From sequence record PZ379176.1: a stretch of 64,000 nucleotides of DNA. One strand, written 5' to 3'. Both the position numbers and the translations under genes were made by a program. The DNA comes from a phage. Shown here piece by piece: positions 1 through 46,391 of this stretch; the first letter of the stretch is position 1, and each line of letters opens with the position of its first letter. Below the pieces are notes generated by a model, which was not told where the DNA came from, made no database searches, and was given only the letters and a program-made list of their open reading frames with translations.

Positions 1-63
1 TGTTTAGTGAGTTTGATGGTCAGTATAAAATCATCACACTCCCTGCTTGTGCTTGAGGTTATT

Positions 64-228
64 ATGTTCAAGTGGTTTAAACGTTTCTTCCATCTCCATG
101 ATTGGGAGACAATAAAAGAAGTTCGTTTACACATATATAATGAGATTGGTCAAATAGAAGACACAGGTACTCGTTATATACTTCGATGTAAAACATGTGG
201 TCATATCACCAAGCGAGATATGATCTAA
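64..228 (+). CDS. hypothetical small protein with C-terminal CxxC (start trimmed to first ATG of track ORF 7..228)
   Basis: ORF track 7..228; internal ATG at 64; CKTCGH motif near C-terminus. Confidence 0.35.
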   Translation: MFKWFKRFFHLHDWETIKEVRLHIYNEIGQIEDTGTRYILRCKTCGHITKRDMI

Positions 229-236
229 ATAATTCT

Positions 237-312
237 GCGCTCTTAGCTCAATGGATAGAGCAGTAGCCTTCTAAGCTATTGGTTACAGGTTCGAGTCCTG
301 TAGGGCGCACCA
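237..312 (+). tRNA. tRNA-Arg (anticodon UCU)
   Basis: Hand-folded cloverleaf: acceptor GCGCTCT/AGGGCGC (one G-U), D-arm GCTC/GAGC, anticodon stem GTAGC/GCTAT with loop CTTCTAA (anticodon TCT), T-arm ACAGG-TTCGAGT-CCTGT, discriminator A and encoded CCA at 310-312. Confidence 0.9.
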
Positions 313-318
313 CATTTA

Positions 319-432
319 GGGCTAGTATGGGTGCGGCACCAGAGTTAGTGTATCCCTGTTGAGGCAAGTGCTTTTATAACAGTGGGAATTACTTTCTTAG
401 TGAGCTTCTGGTTCGATTCCAGATAGTCCACC
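319..432 (+). ncRNA. tRNA-like element: canonical T-arm (TCTGG-TTCGATT-CCAGA at 407-423) plus acceptor-like 3' strand and CCA, but no canonical cloverleaf can be built; 5' boundary uncertain
   Basis: T-loop TTCGATT with 5-bp stem; GGGCTAG at 319-325 pairs 6/7 with ATAGTCC at 423-429, but the span (about 112 nt) is too long for a standard tRNA. Confidence 0.3.
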
Positions 433-452
433 AAATCTAATAGGAGGTAATT

Positions 453-752
453 ATGAGTTGGGGTGGTGTAATATCCTTAATCTGTATCTTCCTTGTCTGC
501 ATAGCCCTTACAGGCTGCGTACAGAGCCGTCCTGATGGATGGTGTGCAGTAGCAGTGGAAGGTGTTTGTGTTTCTCGCTGGTATAAGGGTGAGAAGATTC
601 CTTCTGGTGAAATTGATATGCGATGGAACGGAGCAACCTGTTCTAATGCTAACCCTTCTATCAACGAAGAGAAGTCTACGCCAGACAATGTTGTGATTGA
701 TACAGCGTTGTGGTGTGGTGGCTCTGTAACAACAACCGGTAAGGAGTGGTGA
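453..752 (+). CDS. predicted secreted lipoprotein (signal peptide with lipobox LTGC), Cys-rich
   Basis: AGGAGG RBS at 441-446, ATG 453; hydrophobic N-terminus followed by L-T-G-C lipobox; six further Cys. Confidence 0.6.
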   Translation: MSWGGVISLICIFLVCIALTGCVQSRPDGWCAVAVEGVCVSRWYKGEKIPSGEIDMRWNGATCSNANPSINEEKSTPDNVVIDTALWCGGSVTTTGKEW

Positions 753-753
753 T

Positions 754-951
754 ATGAATTACACATCCACAAAGGTGTTAATTGATTCAATTAATAGCTC
801 CTCAGAAGCTGTACAGGAGCGTTTAATACAAGATGTTAGCAATGACATTAAGTTCTTTGTTAAGAGCCGCCTGTTAGGTTCTAAGGCTTATTACAGAGCT
901 AAAGCAGAGCTTACAAAGAGGGTGTTTCTTTTACATGGTTTGGTATATTAA
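754..951 (+). CDS. hypothetical protein
   Basis: ORF track; tightly packed after upstream gene. Confidence 0.4.
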   Translation: MNYTSTKVLIDSINSSSEAVQERLIQDVSNDIKFFVKSRLLGSKAYYRAKAELTKRVFLLHGLVY

Positions 952-960
952 GGAACTTAT

Positions 961-1182
961 ATGAAACTAGACTCTAAGCAGTCACTTAAAACCGTTGAGC
1001 TGTCCACGCTGCCAAACGGAAGTATTTTTGGTCATGATAAACACTTCTGGATTAAAACAGACATCATAGACGATGGATATATCACCTGTGTCAATCTTTG
1101 GAACGGTTCAGTGGATGGTTATCGCCCTAGCGCAAAGGTAGTCCCTCAGCCTGATGCTAAGGCTGTAGGTTTAGTTTACTAA
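961..1182 (+). CDS. hypothetical protein, member of small paralog family (see 2576-3574)
   Basis: N-terminal pattern K..TV.LS.LP.G..F shared with the four tandem ORFs at 2576-3574. Confidence 0.5.
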   Translation: MKLDSKQSLKTVELSTLPNGSIFGHDKHFWIKTDIIDDGYITCVNLWNGSVDGYRPSAKVVPQPDAKAVGLVY

Positions 1183-1191
1183 GGAGTTCAT

Positions 1192-1365
1192 ATGAGCTGT
1201 TATGGTGGCGGTGAAGTGTGTGATGACGACGACATGGAATCCAATGGTACATGCCCTGACTGTGGGTGTGAGACATTTGATGGAGTGTCAGTATACCCTG
1301 CCTGTAGTTACTCACCAGTGATCTGTAAAACATGTGGAGATCAACCTTGTGACCAGTCTTGTTAG
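1192..1365 (+). CDS. small Cys-rich (zinc-ribbon-like) protein, 57 aa, not in ORF track
   Basis: AAGGAG RBS then ATG 1192; translation contains CPDCGC and CKTCGDQPCDQSC; stop TAG 1363-1365. Confidence 0.4.
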   Translation: MSCYGGGEVCDDDDMESNGTCPDCGCETFDGVSVYPACSYSPVICKTCGDQPCDQSC

Positions 1366-1366
1366 T

Positions 1367-1591
1367 ATGTTAATAGCCTATCTGATAGGATCAGTAGTAT
1401 CAGGTGTTCTGATTAAGATTATAGATGTTAAAGGTAATCAGTGTTTCAGAGGTTGGGATGGTGAGCCAGACCTCGGAAAGATAGCAGCTATGGTTTTCTT
1501 GTGGCCTATTATTGCTGTACTATTTATAGCACTCGTATCATGGGCTGCTCTTTGGGATTTCATCCTTCCTAACAAAAAGTATGAGGACTAA
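1367..1591 (+). CDS. small membrane protein (two hydrophobic helices)
   Basis: Track ORF 1334..1591 trimmed to ATG 1367; strongly hydrophobic segments. Confidence 0.45.
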   Translation: MLIAYLIGSVVSGVLIKIIDVKGNQCFRGWDGEPDLGKIAAMVFLWPIIAVLFIALVSWAALWDFILPNKKYED

Positions 1592-1722
1592 TGACTGAAG
1601 AATTTTTAAAGTGGTTTGGTGATACCTTCAAAGAGTATCTATTCTCTCCAGAAGACTTTGAAGAACTGAAAACCTACACTTGGTTGGCTTGGAGAGATAG
1701 CCGACGAGAGATGAATAAGTAA
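1591..1722 (+). CDS. hypothetical small protein (43 aa)
   Basis: ATG overlapping upstream stop (TAATG); in-frame to TAA 1720-1722. Confidence 0.3.
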   Translation: MTEEFLKWFGDTFKEYLFSPEDFEELKTYTWLAWRDSRREMNK

Positions 1723-2255
1723 TATCGTGAAGGATTCTTACGAGAGTCCTTTGAGATAGGACTTCAGATCTCCTATCAAACTAACATTCATGTAACTAGC
1801 CCATAAGGGCGTTACCCTTTAATAACCCAGCCCACTAAGGGGGCGGGAGTTTAGTGCTGGATTAGCATAACGCTTATTCCTACAAAGGCAACCGATTGTT
1901 AGGTCTTACATGCAATATTAATTAATAGGATAAGGGAGGATTCGTCCCCTCCCCTATTCATAAACTATTAGGAGAGTACATTAGCTGATTAGCTGTGGAA
2001 GGTAGGCCGATATCTACAGCGTGGCCCAGAGCTAGTGTACTCCCCAATAACTTTAGGGTAAATGTGGAACAACCTTTTAATTACAGGTATAGCTTATGGG
2101 ACTCAGTAATGCAGAGTCTACGGTAAAGCAGTCGCCCGTGGTCGAATGACCGTATGCCCATTGGATGCATTCCTTTGGTGATGGCTAGGGAGTCCGAGCG
2201 TAGGTTCGAATCCTACACCTGTAACCAAATTGAATAATAGCTAATTGGAGGATGT
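1723..2255 (+). ncRNA. 530-bp ORF-free structured region ending in a tRNA-like 3' end (T-arm GTAGG-TTCGAAT-CCTAC, acceptor ACCTGTA, discriminator A, CCA at 2225-2227); candidate unusual or interrupted tRNA, or other structured RNA
   Basis: No ORF of 60 aa or more; perfect 7-nt acceptor complement TACAGGT at 2082-2088; hairpins at 1755-1777 and 1933-1952; no canonical cloverleaf found by hand. Confidence 0.3.
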
Positions 2256-2567
2256 ATGAAAGCACGAAGAACTATATGGACTCCGATGCAGATTGAAAAT
2301 CTTCGGAGACTAATCAAAGAGTACTCGGTTCAAGAAGTTGCTCAGATTATGAATGTAACGGAGAATGCAGTTAACGCAGCTTGTACTAAATTCGGAATAT
2401 CAAGAGCTTCAATCCGAGTTAAATGGTCTGAAGAAGAAGACCAGTTCCTTATCCGTAATGCTGGGTTCATGTCTATTCAGAGAATGGCTGACATGCTCGG
2501 TAGAAGTTATGCTGCTGTACAGAACAGAGCATGTATGCACCTTAACATTAGCCTCAAACTTAAATAG
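2256..2567 (+). CDS. putative DNA-binding regulator with two tandem helix-turn-helix-like repeats
   Basis: GGAGG RBS; repeated segments SVQEVAQIMNVTENAVNAA and MSIQRMADMLGRSYAAVQNRA. Confidence 0.5.
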   Translation: MKARRTIWTPMQIENLRRLIKEYSVQEVAQIMNVTENAVNAACTKFGISRASIRVKWSEEEDQFLIRNAGFMSIQRMADMLGRSYAAVQNRACMHLNISLKLK

Positions 2568-2575
2568 GAATCAAT

Positions 2576-2830
2576 ATGAAAGTTAACGAATTGAACAAAA
2601 CTATCAAGACTGTGAAACTCCACACTCTGAAGAAGGGCGATACCTTCCGGCTGGAAGAGAACGGTCCAATTCATATGGTCTGTACTGCGGCATCTACTAA
2701 TTGGGTAGAAGTTGCACGAGATCGAGTCGTGTGTGTCAGACTGGAAGATGGACACTTAAGTGGCCCCGTTGAGGGCATCTCTGTTATTCCTGTTAAGGTT
2801 GAAGCTAACGTTATTAAGGATTCTAAATGA
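2576..2830 (+). CDS. hypothetical protein, tandem paralog 1 of 4
   Basis: Four consecutive 81-84 aa ORFs with overlapping stop/start codons and a shared N-terminal pattern. Confidence 0.55.
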   Translation: MKVNELNKTIKTVKLHTLKKGDTFRLEENGPIHMVCTAASTNWVEVARDRVVCVRLEDGHLSGPVEGISVIPVKVEANVIKDSK

Positions 2831-3078
2831 AGATTACCCACAAGAAAGAAGAAGTGACCACGATTGATCTCAACTCCCTCCCCAGCGGAGCAGTGTTTAA
2901 ATTCCCTGAGAGTGCTACTCTCTATGTTAAAGGGTCTGTGTCTGAAAGTCCTAATGTAACCGTTAACTCTGATCGAACAATTACTCTTCGTCTATCCGAT
3001 GGTAACGTAACAGCACCTTCTATCTGGTGCCGAGTTGTTCCTGTATCAGCAGAACTTTTGGTGGATAATACGCAATGA
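2827..3078 (+). CDS. hypothetical protein, tandem paralog 2 of 4
   Basis: As above; ATGA stop/start overlap. Confidence 0.55.
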   Translation: MKITHKKEEVTTIDLNSLPSGAVFKFPESATLYVKGSVSESPNVTVNSDRTITLRLSDGNVTAPSIWCRVVPVSAELLVDNTQ

Positions 3079-3320
3079 AAATCATCCCAAAGAAAAAGGA
3101 TAATACGGTACGATTGGAAACAATCATTCCCGGAAACCCTTTCGTGGTTCAGAACGGAAGTGCCTCTCCTCAGTATTACATGAGGGTTGAAAATGCTTCT
3201 GGTAACATCCGTATAGCCAGTGGTTGGGTTCCTGTGGTAAACCTTTCCACAGGTGTGTTATCTGTTAAAGGTCTTGATGATCAGGTAGAAATGATTCGTA
3301 TGTCAGTGGTTCAGGAGTAG
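3075..3320 (+). CDS. hypothetical protein, tandem paralog 3 of 4
   Basis: As above. Confidence 0.55.
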   Translation: MKIIPKKKDNTVRLETIIPGNPFVVQNGSASPQYYMRVENASGNIRIASGWVPVVNLSTGVLSVKGLDDQVEMIRMSVVQE

Positions 3321-3574
3321 TGCATATGAGCATTATTAACATTAAAGTTAAAGACAAAGAGGAAAAAATCCTCCGCGTCAGAGATCTAAATATGTCAGAT
3401 GTGTTCACTCTCCAAGAGTGCCAAAATCAAAAGGTTTATATGATGACAGCTAAAAGCAGGGGTTGTCAACCTGCTGGAGCTGTTAACCTAGGCACTGGAG
3501 AACTACGTGTCATCTCTGGTGATATGGTTGTTGGTGAGAAGTTTATTAAGGCTGAAATCATCTTAACTTCGTAG
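3320..3574 (+). CDS. hypothetical protein, tandem paralog 4 of 4 (more diverged)
   Basis: As above. Confidence 0.5.
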   Translation: MHMSIINIKVKDKEEKILRVRDLNMSDVFTLQECQNQKVYMMTAKSRGCQPAGAVNLGTGELRVISGDMVVGEKFIKAEIILTS

Positions 3575-23577: not shown

Positions 23578-23586
23578 TAATGTATA
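23578..23586 (+). promoter_or_regulatory. TAATGTATA motif about 37 nt upstream of gene 23623; candidate phage-sigma promoter element
   Basis: Exact 9-mer; the same 9-mer recurs upstream of other genes on both strands. Confidence 0.4.
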
Positions 23587-29597: not shown

Positions 29598-30013
29598 CTT
29601 ATATCCTTTACTTTTTAGCTTTCTTAGGAATAATCTTTTTATCTATTATTCTTGAATTTGGTTTAAGTAGGTTAGTTAATTATTTAGGTAATAAGTAATT
29701 AATATTCTTTTAAATAGAGAATCAAAGTCCCTAGGAGTCCCTACAACCTAAATCAAGGATTCCTTAATTCTCTATTTTTATCTCGCAGGTGGCTCCTGCC
29801 CTTCGGTACTTGCAAGGGATTCTGTGAATTGCCCAATATACAAGCCTGCAATAACTTTATCAGCTATACAATATATACATTACTAGTGTGTTATATCTAC
29901 TACCAAAGATACTTATATTATATAGTACTCTTATCGGTATAAGCGTAATGTATACTATACATAACCGCTCAAAGAGAGCAACAATCTTTCAAATTAAATA
30001 AGGAAATTAAAAT
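29598..30013 (+). promoter_or_regulatory. 416-bp AT-rich ORF-poor region upstream of the SSB-like gene with inverted and direct repeats and TAATGTATA motif copies on both strands; candidate promoter hub and/or replication origin
   Basis: AAATAGAGAAT (29712-29722) / ATTCTCTATTT (29767-29777) inverted repeat flanking two GTCCCTA direct repeats; TAATGTATA at 29946-29954 (+) and 29874-29882 (- strand reading). Confidence 0.45.
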
Positions 30014-44323: not shown

Positions 44324-45355
44324 TTATAGTCCAGCAAAAACCTTAGCTGCATTTATTACAGGAACTGATAAATTAACTACAGTATCAGCTCCTAGGTCGT
44401 AATTTTGATCCCACTGAAACAGATATCTTCCATAGCCAGTTCCTATGCTAGAGCCACTCATTGTGTGAGATCTCATTTGCTGATATCTCCACCCACTACC
44501 TCGACCTTTTATTGCACCTATTCCAGAAGTAAGAGGTATCATAGGATATGCCATACCAGTGTTGCCCCCTCCCGAACCAATAAAATTGTCTACAGTGAAA
44601 GGTGTTCTATTAGTAGAGAAGACACATTGAGTTGTCCCAGGAGAATATATGTTTAACCCACCATTATGCTCAGGAACACCAGCTCCGTTACAGAACACAG
44701 CGACTCTAACAAAGACAGAACCACCTTCGTTAGTGTTACCATTGACATAAGGCCTATTCTGATAGACTCGAATAACCCTATCATCAGATGTGTAAGATAA
44801 ACCGATCCCTCCATCAGACCAATTAGCAAACACAACAGCATTGGTCATATTGAACCCACCAATATTTGGTATCTGAAGGGAGTTGTTTATGGTCCCCTGC
44901 CAAGCCCAAATACATTGACCAACAACCCCACTATCAGAGATTGAGAAATAATCTGCTGTATTTGAGAAAGTGATTCCATAGTTTCTGTCAGCTCTAGGCC
45001 ATATTTGGTATACGTTGAACCCACAGTCAAATAGTGGGTTACTACCGGGATTCTGGTTCAGAGTCACCCTAAAAGATGAGTTATTTTCTACATAGATGTT
45101 ATTTACACAATAAACATCAGGGACTAAGTTAGGAGGGACTTCCCATTGCCAGCATAGAGAACCAGTAGGAACAATAACTATCTGACCGCTACCATCCCAT
45201 CCACTAATAGGGAAAGATCTCCCTGCTCCGTTAAAGTTAAAACTCCCTCTTATACTATTTTTGAACTGAGGGAAAGTGCTTCCACTGTCTATAAAAAGAG
45301 GGGCTGGTGTAGCTGGTCCCGGCCCTACTGGTTGTGTCCAAATTCCATATGCCAT
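44324..45355 (-). CDS. virion structural protein (343 aa)
   Basis: ORF track; Gly/Asn/Ser-rich. Confidence 0.45.
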   Translation of the reverse strand: MAYGIWTQPVGPGPATPAPLFIDSGSTFPQFKNSIRGSFNFNGAGRSFPISGWDGSGQIVIVPTGSLCWQWEVPPNLVPDVYCVNNIYVENNSSFRVTLNQNPGSNPLFDCGFNVYQIWPRADRNYGITFSNTADYFSISDSGVVGQCIWAWQGTINNSLQIPNIGGFNMTNAVVFANWSDGGIGLSYTSDDRVIRVYQNRPYVNGNTNEGGSVFVRVAVFCNGAGVPEHNGGLNIYSPGTTQCVFSTNRTPFTVDNFIGSGGGNTGMAYPMIPLTSGIGAIKGRGSGWRYQQMRSHTMSGSSIGTGYGRYLFQWDQNYDLGADTVVNLSVPVINAAKVFAGL

Positions 45356-45356
45356 A

Positions 45357-46391
45357 TCACCAACTCCCTATCCTAATTCTCAGAGCACCACTTCCATCGT
45401 AGAAGTCTATCCTGTTTCCATTCATCCACAACTGTGCCCCACCTGTACCACCCATAACAAAATCACCACCAACAGTAAGTCTCCAGTTAGAACCCCACAT
45501 AGAACCAGCAGTAATCTTATCCGCTGATAAGTTCTGAATCTGAGCATTGGAGATAGATACGTTATCAATCTGTGCCCATTGGATTCTAGCGTTAGCAATC
45601 TGGGCTGTTGTGATGTTGACGTTCTTTATGTCAGCGAATTCCATCCTAGCTCTACCACCCTCAAACACAAAAGGTGTGTTACCAGAGTTGCCATCACCAA
45701 CAATAAACTTGTTAGCTGTTACTTGGAATTGACTGTTTGTTCCGTTGTTAGTTAACTTGACCCCAGCATATCTTCCGTTTACTGTAGAGTTAACTCCCCA
45801 TGTAGCTTCATACTCAGAAAGCTTCATATACTGAGAGAGGCTTCCGTTAATATTTTGAATCTCTGTCTGAACTAAAGCAATCTCTTGACCTTGGTCGTTG
45901 ACAATACCTTCTACCGTTTGAATCTTAGTTGTGTTACCCTCAATACTTGTTTTAAAGCCAGATACAGTGCTTTCTAATTTTACAGGAGGTTGAACAGAAT
46001 TATCCCAAATATCTTCAGTGGAGAGATTCCCCATCTGTGTTTGGATATCGGCAATAGCTGTCTCTATCTCTGTAGTAATTCTATTCTCAAGCTCATCAAA
46101 TTGTAAGTTCATCGCATGAAGAGCTTTGATACGAACATCAATCTCATCGTGAATCTCATCAATAGCTTGGAACATTTGGTTAGTAGCTGTGCTGACTTTC
46201 TGTAGCTCGTCATATACGGCTACGTTATATGTTTCTGTGTCCTGTACATTATTGAGAAACCCAACGTTGTACGGGAGTGTGGTGTTATTACGACCAGTGT
46301 TCTTACGAAAACCACCTGCACCCATAAGTTCCTCCAAAACAATAAAAGGGGCACGAAGCCCCTTGTTGTTATCTCCGTCCGCCAACAGCAA
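45357..46391 (-). CDS. tail fiber-like protein
   Basis: Gly-rich C-terminal region typical of fiber tips. Confidence 0.45.
   Translation of the reverse strand: MLLADGDNNKGLRAPFIVLEELMGAGGFRKNTGRNNTTLPYNVGFLNNVQDTETYNVAVYDELQKVSTATNQMFQAIDEIHDEIDVRIKALHAMNLQFDELENRITTEIETAIADIQTQMGNLSTEDIWDNSVQPPVKLESTVSGFKTSIEGNTTKIQTVEGIVNDQGQEIALVQTEIQNINGSLSQYMKLSEYEATWGVNSTVNGRYAGVKLTNNGTNSQFQVTANKFIVGDGNSGNTPFVFEGGRARMEFADIKNVNITTAQIANARIQWAQIDNVSISNAQIQNLSADKITAGSMWGSNWRLTVGGDFVMGGTGGAQLWMNGNRIDFYDGSGALRIRIGSW

What the first reader, a model, noticed from the sequence alone, without database searches (positions are those of the whole stretch)
453..752. Early-region lipoprotein with Cys-rich mature domain: candidate superinfection-exclusion or receptor-blocking factor
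A strong RBS, signal peptide and lipobox (LTGC) define an exported lipoprotein of about 80 mature residues with six additional cysteines, encoded next to the tRNA at the start of the early block. Early lipoproteins of lytic phages are known to mask the phage's own receptor.
Basis: partly seen in the sequence, partly recalled or inferred. Interest (0 to 1): 0.45.

Follow-up and report, generated by a model that had tools for sequence, protein, structure and literature searches.

The report
Rtp45-type receptor-blocking lipoprotein of a Kuravirus
This small early phage gene encodes a lipoprotein of the same family as Rtp45, a protein shown to plug the bacterial LPS exporter LptD from inside so that phages cannot dock on it; the same genome carries the matching LptD-binding tail protein, which suggests that this group of short-tailed coliphages uses LptD as its so far unidentified final receptor.

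Summary
The ORF at 453-752 (+) is real: strong RBS, hydrophobic signal peptide, lipobox LTGC, 78-residue mature protein. It has four extra cysteines in the mature part, not six. The window is a Kuravirus (phiEco32/SU10-like podophage).

The protein is a full-length member of Pfam PF24052 (E=1e-34). Its only solved relative is Rtp45 (PDB 9RPS), the superinfection-exclusion lipoprotein of siphophage Rtp. Rtp45 binds the periplasmic side of LptDE and displaces loop EL4. Mature-protein identity is 52%, the disulfide pair is conserved, and the AF2 model matches 9rps_D alone (TM 0.76).

The difference is a 24-residue, Cys63-Cys88-bounded, hypervariable insertion at the predicted hairpin tip.

44 kb away, the window gene 44324-45355 (-) (SU10 gp19, never assigned a role) is a sequence and fold homolog of the LptD-binding RBPs Rtp44/RBP-Oeko (TM 0.81 to 9rpt_C). 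It sits just after a J-like tail needle. Lipoprotein and RBP co-occur in every lineage examined.

The most likely target is LptDE, which would also be the Kuravirus terminal receptor. I found no paper reporting that. No binding, lipidation or exclusion phenotype has been shown for this protein.

The parts
442..447 (+). Shine-Dalgarno AGGAGG, 5 nt upstream of the ATG
   Evidence: Read directly from the sequence.
453..752 (+). CDS of the 99-aa prolipoprotein (homolog of SU10 gp104), stop codon TGA at 750-752
   Evidence: ORF list. Pfam PF24052 E=1e-34 and phrog_4281 E=9e-34. dN/dS 0.10-0.37.
453..515 (+). Signal peptide, residues 1-21: uncharged n-region MSWGG and 14-residue h-region
   Evidence: Aligned with the signal peptides of Rtp45, SE-Oeko and the Webervirus homolog.
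507..518 (+). Lipobox L-T-G-C. Cys22 (516-518) is the predicted lipidated first residue of the mature protein. Val at +2 predicts outer-membrane sorting.
   Evidence: PS51257 core pattern match. G21 and C22 are invariant across the family.
543..569 (+). Cys31...Cys39 pair, aligned with the Cys30-Cys38 disulfide seen in Rtp45, inside the conserved motif RPDGWC-x7-C
   Evidence: phmmer alignment to 9rps_D. Both Cys are invariant in the 59-sequence alignment. The disulfide is described in PMC12685063.
639..716 (+). Cys63...Cys88-bounded 24-residue insertion (residues 64-87) at the predicted tip of the long beta-hairpin. It is absent from Rtp45, SE-Oeko and the Webervirus homologs and hypervariable among Kuravirus alleles (93-, 99- and 108-aa types).
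   Evidence: Alignments. AF2 gives a low-confidence loop between strands 31-44 and 65-77 in mature numbering. pN in the loop is 0.37-0.58 against 0.06-0.13 in the core.
717..749 (+). Conserved C-terminal strand GGSVTTTGKEW. The G-x-V...(K/R)EW motif is shared with Rtp45, SE-Oeko and the Webervirus proteins.
237..312 (+). tRNA-Arg(TCT) immediately upstream, same strand, presumably on the same early transcript
   Evidence: ARAGORN. Rfam RF00005 at 72.4 bits. The same neighbourhood is seen in EcoN5 and 101114UKE3.
44324..45355 (-). Homolog of SU10 gp19 (343 aa): DUF6453 protein, sequence and fold homolog of the LptD-binding RBPs Rtp44 and RBP-Oeko. Inferred cognate RBP whose docking the lipoprotein would block.
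   Evidence: tblastn E=8e-11 and 1e-11. Pfam PF20051 at 90 bits against a cut-off of 25, and phrog_1265 E=2e-110. The only PDB sequence hit is 9rpt_C, E=1.8e-10. AF2 pLDDT 86, pTM 0.87. Foldseek finds only 9rpt_C below E=0.001 (E=6.6e-13, TMt 0.81).
45357..46391 (-). Tail needle (SU10 gp18 homolog) with a lambda-J-like Phage_Tail_Tip domain. Inferred carrier of the gp19 RBP.
   Evidence: PF09327 E=8e-27. PDB 7z4b_EA E=5e-209. Residues 68-267 align with the C-terminal part of the J-like proteins of Oekolampad (E=2e-6) and Rtp (E=8e-5).

Best explanation
The gene encodes an Rtp45-type superinfection-exclusion lipoprotein whose target is the LptDE lipopolysaccharide translocon.

Proposed mechanism, with the status of each step:
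1. It is transcribed in the early class by read-through from sigma-70 promoters further upstream. This is inferred from the SU10/phiEco32 gene classes and from the absence of a phage-sigma promoter nearby.
2. The precursor is exported, lipidated at Cys22 and sorted by Lol to the inner leaflet of the outer membrane. This is inferred from the sequence.
3. Cys31-Cys39 forms a disulfide, as in Rtp45. Cys63-Cys88 probably staples the base of an extra tip loop. Both are inferred.
4. The protein docks on the periplasmic rim of the LptD barrel and pushes its long beta-hairpin up the lumen, forcing extracellular loop EL4 outward. This is shown for Rtp45 in PDB 9RPS and inferred here by homology.
5. LptD can then no longer accept the phage's own DUF6453 receptor-binding protein (gp19 homolog), which I infer sits on the tip of the J-like tail needle.
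6. Infected cells, and the membrane debris left after lysis, stop triggering irreversible adsorption of sister virions and of other LptD-dependent phages.

A corollary follows: LptD is the terminal receptor of Kuraviruses, after O-antigen binding by the long fibres.
For: Homology of the lipoprotein to Rtp45:
- Full-length Pfam PF24052 hit, E=1e-34.
- The only credible PDB relative is Rtp45 (9rps_D): phmmer E=1.3e-13 and family profile E=1.2e-34 over the whole chain.
- The mature protein is 52% identical to mature Rtp45 over 54 aligned positions. That is more than the 35% between Rtp45 and the Oekolampad SE protein, both assigned to LptD.
- Lipobox Cys, the disulfide pair, the GE-D-R-G strand and the C-terminal KEW are conserved.
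- The AF2 model (pLDDT 82) is a long beta-hairpin. Its only Foldseek hit below E=1 is 9rps_D (prob 1.0, TMt 0.76).
- The Rtp45 mechanism and structure are described in PMC12685063.

The cognate RBP is present:
- Window 44324-45355(-) belongs to DUF6453 and phrog_1265 together with Rtp44 and RBP-Oeko.
- Its only PDB sequence hit is RBP-Oeko.
- Foldseek returns 9rpt_C alone with E below 0.001 (E=6.6e-13, TMt 0.81).
- It lies directly after a J-like tail needle.

Co-occurrence of the two genes:
- Of 34 IMG/VR loci with the lipoprotein, 28 have a DUF6453 gene immediately downstream, 3 have partial or diverged ones within 650 nt, and 3 Webervirus-like contigs have it about 9.5 kb away.
- Kuravirus genomes (window, EcoN5, and several records found in both searches) and a distant 100-kb relative carry both genes unlinked.

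Expression class and selection:
- SU10 early genes are CDS 69-125 and the homolog is gp104.
- There is no tAATGTAtA phage-sigma promoter on the + strand before position 23578.
- Purifying selection acts on the core.

Precedent: the podovirus DEV uses O-antigen and then LptD through a gpJ-like fibre plus RBP module.
Against: - No experiment exists on this protein: lipidation, localisation, LptDE binding and exclusion are all inferred.
- The n-region has no Lys or Arg, which is atypical for lipoprotein signal peptides.
- SU10 gp19 was not among the 34 proteins detected by MS of concentrated virions, nor in the gel-band MS of the cryo-EM study, and it is not placed in the virion model. A single copy co-migrating with the 38.5-kDa capsid protein could be missed, but its virion location is unproven.
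- The Kuravirus RBP is only about 23-25% identical to the LptD-binding RBPs, so a shift of receptor is possible.
- Published receptor work on Gordonclarkvirinae points only to O-antigen, and resistant mutants lost O-antigen.
- The 24-residue tip insertion has no counterpart in the solved complex, and its effect on binding is unknown.
- Lipoprotein and RBP alleles do not co-vary. EcoN5 has 95% against 47% identity to the window, PE006 92% against 63%, and CHD5UKE1 74% against 98%. There is therefore no co-evolution signal to add support.
Confidence: 0.7

Rival explanations
1. Cross-exclusion only. The lipoprotein blocks LptD to keep competing LptD-dependent siphophages (Rtp-, Dhillonvirus- and Queuovirinae-type) out of the infected cell. 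The Kuravirus itself would not need LptD, and gp19 would have another role or another target.
For: - Published data implicate only O-antigen for Gordonclarkvirinae.
- gp19 has not been detected in SU10 virions.
- Lipoprotein and RBP alleles assort independently.
Against: - A DUF6453 RBP homolog is retained in the tail gene block, directly after a J-like needle, in Kuravirus, Suseptimavirus-type genomes and a distant 100-kb relative.
- Across phages the lipoprotein almost never occurs without such an RBP.
- In siphophages the pair is a self-exclusion module.
Confidence: 0.12
2. Same family, different target. The Kuravirus lipoprotein and gp19 have both drifted to another outer-membrane protein, and the lipoprotein blocks that one.
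For: - The RBP is only 23-25% identical to the LptD binders.
- The lipoprotein carries a large lineage-specific insertion at the functional tip.
- RBP modules of small siphophages are known to switch receptors by exchange.
Against: - The lipoprotein core is 52% identical to Rtp45, closer than the two accepted LptD-directed proteins are to each other.
- In siphophages different receptors go with different, non-homologous RBP loci rather than diverged versions of the same one.
- The RBP fold matches the LptD-bound structure with TMt 0.81.
Confidence: 0.1
3. Host-envelope manipulation. By occupying the LptD lumen the lipoprotein mainly throttles LPS/O-antigen export. This would stop the display of new primary receptor or weaken the outer membrane before lysis, and exclusion would be a side effect.
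For: - In the solved complex the Rtp45 hairpin runs up through the LptD lumen, next to LptE and LptM.
- Kuraviruses depend on O-antigen, which is exported through LptD.
- The Kuravirus hairpin carries a 24-residue insertion that the solved Rtp45 lacks.
Against: - Rtp45 was co-overexpressed with LptDE in E. coli, and the parts of the paper read here report no toxicity.
- Existing surface LPS would persist through a short lytic cycle.
- The strict genomic association is with an RBP, not with envelope or lysis genes.
Confidence: 0.05
4. Not a functional lipoprotein: a secreted or membrane-retained small Cys-rich early protein, or an outer-membrane spanin-like lysis component.
For: - The n-region has no positive charge.
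- o-spanins are also small outer-membrane lipoproteins with cysteines (general knowledge).
Against: - The lipobox Gly-Cys is invariant in 59 homologs.
- There is no i-spanin partner, and the neighbours are small early ORFs. In SU10, holin and endolysin are gp14 and gp15 in the late block.
- The family match to a demonstrated LptDE-bound lipoprotein is specific.
Confidence: 0.03

Closest known systems
Rtp45, superinfection-exclusion lipoprotein of Escherichia phage Rtp (PDB 9RPS chain D; Pfam PF24052)
   Same: - Same Pfam family and full-length homology: signal peptide, lipobox, RPDGWC-x7-C disulfide motif, GE-D-R-G strand and C-terminal KEW.
- 52% identity between the mature proteins.
- The AF2 model superposes on the experimental structure (TMt 0.76).
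- The genome also carries a DUF6453 RBP.
   Different: - A 24-residue Cys-bounded hypervariable insertion at the hairpin tip.
- An uncharged n-region.
- The gene sits in the early block of a podovirus, 44 kb from the RBP gene, instead of directly upstream of it in a siphovirus.
- Function is untested.
SE-Oeko (bas18_0026) of Dhillonvirus Oekolampad and the lipoproteins of other LptD-dependent small siphophages
   Same: Same family (tblastn E=2e-5 in Oekolampad). The lipoprotein is coupled with an LptD-type RBP.
   Different: Only 38% identity. Those genes are adjacent to the RBP downstream of gpJ.
Webervirus (Klebsiella T1-like) 'receptor blocking protein', e.g. phage Solomon gp32
   Same: 50% identity including the C-terminal TTTGKEW. 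The gene is also unlinked from the DUF6453 RBP (about 10 kb away, between the VRR-NUC and Dam genes).
   Different: It lacks the Cys-bounded insertion and belongs to a siphovirus. Its receptor has not been established in anything I read.
Llp of phage T5 (FhuA blocker) and Cor of T1/phi80/N15
   Same: They work alike: an early small outer-membrane lipoprotein acts from the periplasmic side on the phage's own protein receptor. This prevents superinfection and the loss of progeny on debris.
   Different: - There is no detectable sequence relationship. A family profile search of all PDB chains did not retrieve Llp, and no Pfam family other than PF24052 scored above its cut-off.
- The target is FhuA and the mechanism is long-range allostery. 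Rtp45 instead displaces loops physically.
DEV (Schitoviridae) gp56-gp55-gp54 receptor-binding fibre targeting LptD
   Same: A podovirus that binds O-antigen first and LptD second, through a gpJ-like fibre carrying a separate RBP that is coupled to tail unplugging. This resembles the inferred gp18 needle plus gp19 arrangement.
   Different: The host is Pseudomonas, and homology of gp54 to DUF6453 was not tested here. The parts of the paper I searched mention no exclusion lipoprotein.

Membership tests
Pfam PF24052 Phage_lipoprotein (Rtp45-like SE lipoproteins) | Scores above the family's gathering threshold over the full model | tested here: met
   118.8 bits against a cut-off of 27, E=1e-34, model positions 1-80 of 80. 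All 85 database homologs carry PF24052.
Pfam PF24052 Phage_lipoprotein (Rtp45-like SE lipoproteins) | N-terminal signal peptide ending in a lipobox with an invariant Cys | tested here: met
   IFLVCIALTGC fits the PS51257 core pattern and the h-region is strongly hydrophobic. G21 and C22 are invariant in the family. Caveat: the first 7 residues contain no K or R.
Pfam PF24052 Phage_lipoprotein (Rtp45-like SE lipoproteins) | Conserved cysteine pair equivalent to the Rtp45 Cys30-Cys38 disulfide | tested here: met
   C31 and C39 align with C30 and C38 and are invariant in 59 sequences. Formation of the bond itself was not tested.
Pfam PF24052 Phage_lipoprotein (Rtp45-like SE lipoproteins) | Fold of Rtp45: small beta core plus a long beta-hairpin | tested here: met
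   AF2 pLDDT 81.9 with strands at 31-44 and 65-77. In Foldseek, 9rps_D has E=1e-3, prob 1.0 and TMt 0.76, and the next hit has E=2.3.
Pfam PF24052 Phage_lipoprotein (Rtp45-like SE lipoproteins) | Encoded in a genome that also encodes a DUF6453 (Rtp44/RBP-Oeko-type) receptor-binding protein | tested here: met
   Window 44324-45355(-). Association across 34 IMG/VR loci.
Pfam PF24052 Phage_lipoprotein (Rtp45-like SE lipoproteins) | Gene immediately adjacent to the RBP gene downstream of gpJ (the siphophage arrangement) | tested here: not met
   The two genes are 44 kb apart on opposite strands. The arrangement is also unlinked in Webervirus. This is a feature of the siphophage locus, not of the protein family.
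Pfam PF24052 Phage_lipoprotein (Rtp45-like SE lipoproteins) | Binds the periplasmic face of LptDE and displaces EL4 | not testable with these tools
   Shown only for Rtp45. The authors report that AF3 complex predictions for this system are wrong, so in-silico docking would not settle it.
Pfam PF24052 Phage_lipoprotein (Rtp45-like SE lipoproteins) | Confers exclusion of the cognate phage when expressed | not testable with these tools
   This needs plating and adsorption assays.
T5 Llp family (FhuA-blocking lipoprotein) | Sequence homology to Llp | tested here: not met
   The family profile A2 searched against all PDB chains at E<=10 returns Rtp45 and no Llp chain. phmmer with the single sequence gives the same result.
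Outer-membrane spanin (Rz1-like) | Located in the lysis cassette, paired with or embedded in an i-spanin gene | tested here: not met
   The neighbours are small early ORFs of unknown function. In SU10, holin and endolysin are gp14 and gp15 in the late block.
LptD-dependent phages (terminal receptor LptD) | Possession of a DUF6453 RBP with the fold of RBP-Oeko, carried after a J-like tip protein | tested here: met
LptD-dependent phages (terminal receptor LptD) | Infection abolished by lptD extracellular-loop mutations, and the RBP binds LptDE | not testable with these tools
   The papers I could search contain no such data for Kuravirus.

The most novel reading that the evidence does not exclude
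Kuraviruses (the prolate C3 podophages phiEco32, SU10, ES17 and the BASEL Gordonclarkvirinae) have the essential LPS translocon LptDE as their hitherto unidentified terminal receptor.

- LptDE would be read by an overlooked, probably single-copy RBP (gp19, DUF6453) on the tip of the J-like tail needle. Its engagement would be the trigger for needle release and nozzle formation.
- The early lipoprotein would be the matching periplasmic plug.
- Its lineage-specific, disulfide-stapled hypervariable loop would extend the Rtp45 hairpin further up the LptD lumen. It might reach the cell surface, where it could be under diversifying pressure from competing LptD-targeting phages.
Probability: 0.5. Interest if true: 0.7.

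Novelty: new member of a known kind. Interest (0 to 1): 0.5.

Why it matters
- The lipoprotein itself belongs to a curated family with a solved, mechanistically understood member, so it is not new.
- The value is in what it reveals about its phage. Together with the gp19/RBP-Oeko homology, it turns an open question into a concrete hypothesis testable with existing reagents: lptD loop mutants, BASEL Kuraviruses, and the Rtp45 co-expression protocol. The open question is what the terminal receptor of Kuraviruses is and what triggers their unusual tail-needle release and nozzle extension.
- Kuraviruses are broad-host-range, restriction-resistant therapy candidates. An essential, conserved receptor such as LptD affects expectations about resistance.
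- The same central-fibre tip, RBP and exclusion-lipoprotein set appears in siphophages and podophages. In the podophage the exclusion gene has moved into the early operon.

Tried and rejected
- **Link to T5 Llp.** An annotation of Klebsiella phage Solomon cites a weak BLAST hit to a T5 'receptor-blocking protein'. A family profile searched against all PDB chains did not retrieve Llp, so I treat Llp as a functional analogue only.
- **PDB hits to designed armadillo-repeat proteins.** These reached E of 2e-10 but had 0 significant stretches. They are summed weak repeat matches to the Asn/Glu-rich insertion and I dismissed them.
- **Weak Pfam hits.** PorV and Anophelin (E=0.16 and 0.26, far below their cut-offs) were dismissed.
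- **NCBIfam.** No family matched either protein.
- **Spanin idea.** Rejected on gene context.
- **Local promoter.** The sigma-70 scan found no + strand promoter in 1-3000. The phage-sigma consensus has no site near the gene. The gene therefore depends on read-through.
- **Allele co-variation between the lipoprotein loop type and the RBP type.** None was found. It gives no extra support, and it rejects the idea of allele-specific pairing.
- **Virion evidence for gp19.** I looked in two SU10 papers and one supplement and found none.
- **Literature link between Kuravirus and LptD.** Nothing was found beyond the BASEL paper, which does not connect them.
- **tRNA-like 3' end at 313-432.** Neither ARAGORN nor Rfam calls it.
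- **First fetch of EcoN5.** It stopped short of the lipoprotein and had to be extended.
Full report
**1. What is in the sequence**

The ORF 453-752 (+) encodes 99 residues: MSWGGVISLICIFLVCIALTGCVQSRPDGWCAVAVEGVCVSRWYKGEKIPSGEIDMRWNGATCSNANPSINEEKSTPDNVVIDTALWCGGSVTTTGKEW.

- A perfect AGGAGG lies at 442-447, 5 nt before the ATG. An in-frame TAG at 441-443 excludes a longer N-terminus.
- Residues 6-19 form a strongly hydrophobic h-region (mean Kyte-Doolittle 3.3). IFLVCIALTGC fits the core pattern of the PROSITE lipoprotein signature. Cys22 would be the lipidated first residue of a 78-residue mature protein of 8.4 kDa and pI 4.7.
- Val at +2 predicts Lol-dependent sorting to the outer membrane. 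This is the E. coli '+2 rule', from general knowledge.
- The stop codon TGA (750-752) is followed one base later by the next ATG, and that gene's AAGGAG lies inside the 3' end of this one. The genes are tightly packed in an operon.
- tRNA-Arg(TCT) lies at 237-312.

- There are seven cysteines. Two lie in the cleaved signal peptide and one is the lipidation site, so the mature domain has four further cysteines: C31, C39, C63 and C88.
- The gene is not at the start of the early block. It only appears so because the window begins there.

**2. Where the window comes from**

The first 3 kb are 99.9% identical to Shigella phage ShigP1 and 91-97% identical to many Kuravirus genomes, including SU10, DE5 and SkaterBoy/Bas90. 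These are prolate C3 podophages of the Gordonclarkvirinae.

- In SU10 the homolog is gp104, annotated 'putative lipoprotein'.
- The SU10 authors class CDS 69-125 as early. The sigma-70 promoters lie upstream of CDS125 and between CDS120 and 121.
- In the window I found no sigma-70-like promoter on the + strand in the first 3 kb.
- The phage-sigma (gp36) consensus tAATGTAtA has its first + strand site at 23578.

The gene is therefore early-class, transcribed by read-through, and lies some 16-20 genes downstream of the promoters.

**3. Family and closest solved relative**

The protein matches Pfam PF24052 'Phage_lipoprotein' over the whole model (E=1e-34, 118.8 bits against a cut-off of 27) and phrog_4281.

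Against all PDB sequences the only credible hit is 9rps_D (E=1.3e-13). A profile of 59 family members hits it over its full length at E=1.2e-34.

[quoted passage not shown] According to that paper:

- Rtp45 binds the periplasmic rim of LptD near strands 5-8, sandwiched between LptE and LptM.
- It has a Cys30-Cys38 disulfide.
- It sends a long, partly beta-stranded hairpin up the LptD lumen.
- It displaces extracellular loop EL4 by up to 20 A, so that the phage RBP can no longer bind.

The window protein aligns with Rtp45 from the signal peptide to the C-terminal KEW.

- C31 and C39 correspond to C30 and C38.
- Mature-protein identity is 52% over 54 aligned positions. That is more than the 35% between Rtp45 and the Oekolampad SE protein.
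- An AF2 model built on the family alignment (pLDDT 81.9) shows a small beta core and a long hairpin, at mature residues 31-44 and 65-77.
- Foldseek against the PDB returns 9rps_D as the only hit with E below 1 (E=1e-3, probability 1.0, TM 0.76 normalised to Rtp45).
- T5 Llp is not retrieved by the family profile. Llp and Cor are therefore functional analogues, not detectable relatives.

**4. What is different**

Kuravirus proteins carry an insertion exactly where the AF2 model places the hairpin tip.

- In the window it is residues 64-87, flanked by C63 and C88.
- Among seven Gordonclarkvirinae alleles the core is nearly invariant: pN 0.03-0.13, and core dN/dS about 0.12-0.28.
- The insertion comes in three length types (93-, 99- and 108-aa proteins). 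Its pN is 0.37-0.58 and its synonymous sites are saturated.
- AF2 confidence is low there.
- The two flanking cysteines are conserved in all insertion-bearing alleles. This suggests a second disulfide at the base of a variable loop, which is an inference.
- The n-region lacks any Lys or Arg in all Kuravirus alleles, unlike the siphophage homologs.

**5. The partner gene**

In LptD-dependent small siphophages the exclusion lipoprotein is encoded next to the RBP, downstream of gpJ. I therefore searched the window with Rtp44 and RBP-Oeko.

- Both hit the minus-strand ORF 44324-45355, with E=8e-11 and 1e-11.
- This 343-aa protein belongs to the same Pfam family (DUF6453, 90 bits against a cut-off of 25) and the same PHROG (1265, E=2e-110 over the full length) as the two RBPs.
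- Its only PDB sequence hit is RBP-Oeko in the LptDE complexes 9RPT, 9RPW and 9RQI (E=1.8e-10).
- Its AF2 model (pLDDT 86, pTM 0.87) matches 9rpt_C alone with E below 0.001 (E=6.6e-13, TM 0.81 normalised to the target). The next hit has E=0.11.
- It is the homolog of SU10 gp19. It lies between the tail needle gp18 and the transglycosylase ejection protein gp20.
- The needle carries the lambda-J-like Phage_Tail_Tip domain. Its residues 68-267 align with the C-terminal part of the J-like proteins of Oekolampad and Rtp, the part that precedes the RBP gene in those phages.
- The main text and held supplements of the SU10 cryo-EM paper do not mention gp19.

**6. Co-occurrence of the two genes**

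- tblastn against 50,697 phage records finds the lipoprotein in 384 records and the RBP homolog in 309. Both sets fall in the same groups: Kuravirus and relatives, Klebsiella Webervirus, and Rtp-like, Dhillonvirus and related small siphophages.
- Of 34 lipoprotein loci in IMG/VR:
  - 28 have a DUF6453 gene immediately downstream.
  - 3 have a partial or diverged one within 650 nt.
  - 3 Webervirus-like contigs have it 9.2-9.7 kb away.
  - 2 are Kuraviruses, where the RBP lies outside the 10-kb flank.
  - 1 is cut by the contig end.
- A 100.6-kb metagenomic contig has a Kuravirus-like tail module (Big_2 nozzle, Phage_Tail_Tip, DUF6453, SLT). It carries a 39%-identical lipoprotein about 25 kb from a 45%-identical RBP.

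The pair is therefore retained together across deep divergence, whether linked or not.

The alleles do not co-vary. Relative to the window, EcoN5 has a 95%-identical lipoprotein but a 47%-identical RBP, PE006 has 92% against 63%, and CHD5UKE1 has 74% against 98%. This fits two proteins that touch opposite faces of the same receptor. It argues against allele-specific pairing.

**7. Interpretation**

The best explanation is that this is the Kuravirus version of the Rtp45-type exclusion lipoprotein.

- It is made early, lipidated and sent to the inner leaflet of the outer membrane.
- It plugs LptDE from the periplasm.
- The phage's own gp19 RBP then cannot dock, and neither can those of competing LptD-dependent phages.
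- This protects the infected cell from superinfection and protects progeny from being wasted on debris.

The status of each element is as follows.

- Shown here: family membership, conserved motifs, fold similarity, presence and fold of the RBP homolog, their co-occurrence, and purifying selection.
- Taken from the literature: the Rtp45 mechanism and the early gene class.
- Inferred: lipidation, sorting, disulfides, LptDE as the target, and gp19 as a virion RBP on the needle tip.

The corollary is that LptD is the terminal receptor of Kuraviruses.

- It is consistent with their strict dependence on O-antigen as the first receptor.
- lptD is essential, so it is absent from knockout collections, and its mutational target is small. 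That would explain why resistant mutants lose O-antigen instead.
- There is a precedent. The N4-like podovirus DEV binds O-antigen first and then LptD, through a gpJ-like fibre that carries a separate RBP and controls tail unplugging.
- My searches found no paper linking Kuravirus to LptD.

**8. Evidence against and limits**

- SU10 gp19 was not among the 34 proteins detected by MS of PEG-concentrated virions. It also does not appear in the gel-band MS of the cryo-EM study.
- One copy per virion of a 37-kDa protein next to 715 copies of a 38.5-kDa capsid protein could escape detection. This remains the weakest link.
- The RBP is only 23-25% identical to the proven LptD binders.
- The tip insertion has no structural precedent.
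- The authors of the LptDE work report that AF3 predictions of these complexes are wrong, so I did not attempt docking.
- All functional statements for this protein await experiment.

**9. Verdict**

The gene and its lipoprotein features are real, while the cysteine count and the position in the early block were inexact.
- The protein is a new member of a known kind.
- Interest is moderate (0.5). It lies mainly in the testable prediction about the Kuravirus receptor and the unassigned gp19.

Noticed in passing
window 44324-45355 (-), with 45357-46391 (-): The SU10 gp19 homolog is a DUF6453 protein with the fold of the LptD-binding RBP of Oekolampad (Foldseek TMt 0.81 to 9rpt_C). It lies directly after the J-like tail needle. 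The SU10 structural and proteomic papers assign it no role and did not detect it.
   Followed up: yes
window 313-432 (+): A 120-nt spacer lies between tRNA-Arg and the lipoprotein RBS. It ends in a tRNA-like T-arm plus acceptor plus CCA (CTGGTTCGATTCCAGATAGTCCACCA), and an acceptor-like 5' strand GGGCTAG pairs with it. It is absent from EcoN5, where the tRNA abuts the RBS. ARAGORN and Rfam do not call it. It folds to -37.7 kcal/mol (z = -2.0). It may be a degraded or interrupted second tRNA.
   Followed up: partly
window 961-1182 and 2576-3574 (+): Five small early ORFs of 73-84 aa, four of them in tandem, are paralogs. They share 22-29% identity and the motif MK..K..TV.L.TL..G..F ... VNL..G. 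They match PHROGs of unknown function.
   Followed up: partly
window 1192-1365 (+): A 57-aa early ORF has 10 cysteines and an acidic run (CPDCGC...CKTCGDQPCDQSC), which looks like a zinc-ribbon or knot protein. It matches phrog_13157, of unknown function.
   Followed up: no
window 1-3000 versus 44324-45355: The genome is mosaic. The early region is 99.9% identical to ShigP1, but the gp19 protein is only 96.8% identical to the ShigP1 copy and 98.3% identical to those of myPSH2311 and EcP-vB. Across Kuraviruses gp19 ranges down to 45-63% identity while the lipoprotein core stays nearly invariant.
   Followed up: partly
L004 (Klebsiella phage Solomon) 3995-4222; Trimon PV340598 19833-20732 and 30357-30575: Webervirus phages carry the closest non-Kuravirus lipoprotein (50% identity, same C-terminus). 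It lies between the VRR-NUC and Dam genes, about 10 kb from their DUF6453 RBP. These Klebsiella phages may also be LptD-dependent.
   Followed up: partly
window 23578 (+), 29874 (-), 29946 (+), 39778 (-): There are four exact copies of the phiEco32 gp36-sigma promoter element TAATGTATA, against 0.7 expected by chance. They probably mark the middle and late promoters of this phage, including a divergent pair at 29874 and 29946.
   Followed up: no
records MG0656xx: Seven 'Campylobacter phage' records of 47-50 kb carry both the lipoprotein and the DUF6453 RBP typical of enterobacterial T1-like phages. This suggests a mislabelled host or contaminating coliphages.
   Followed up: no
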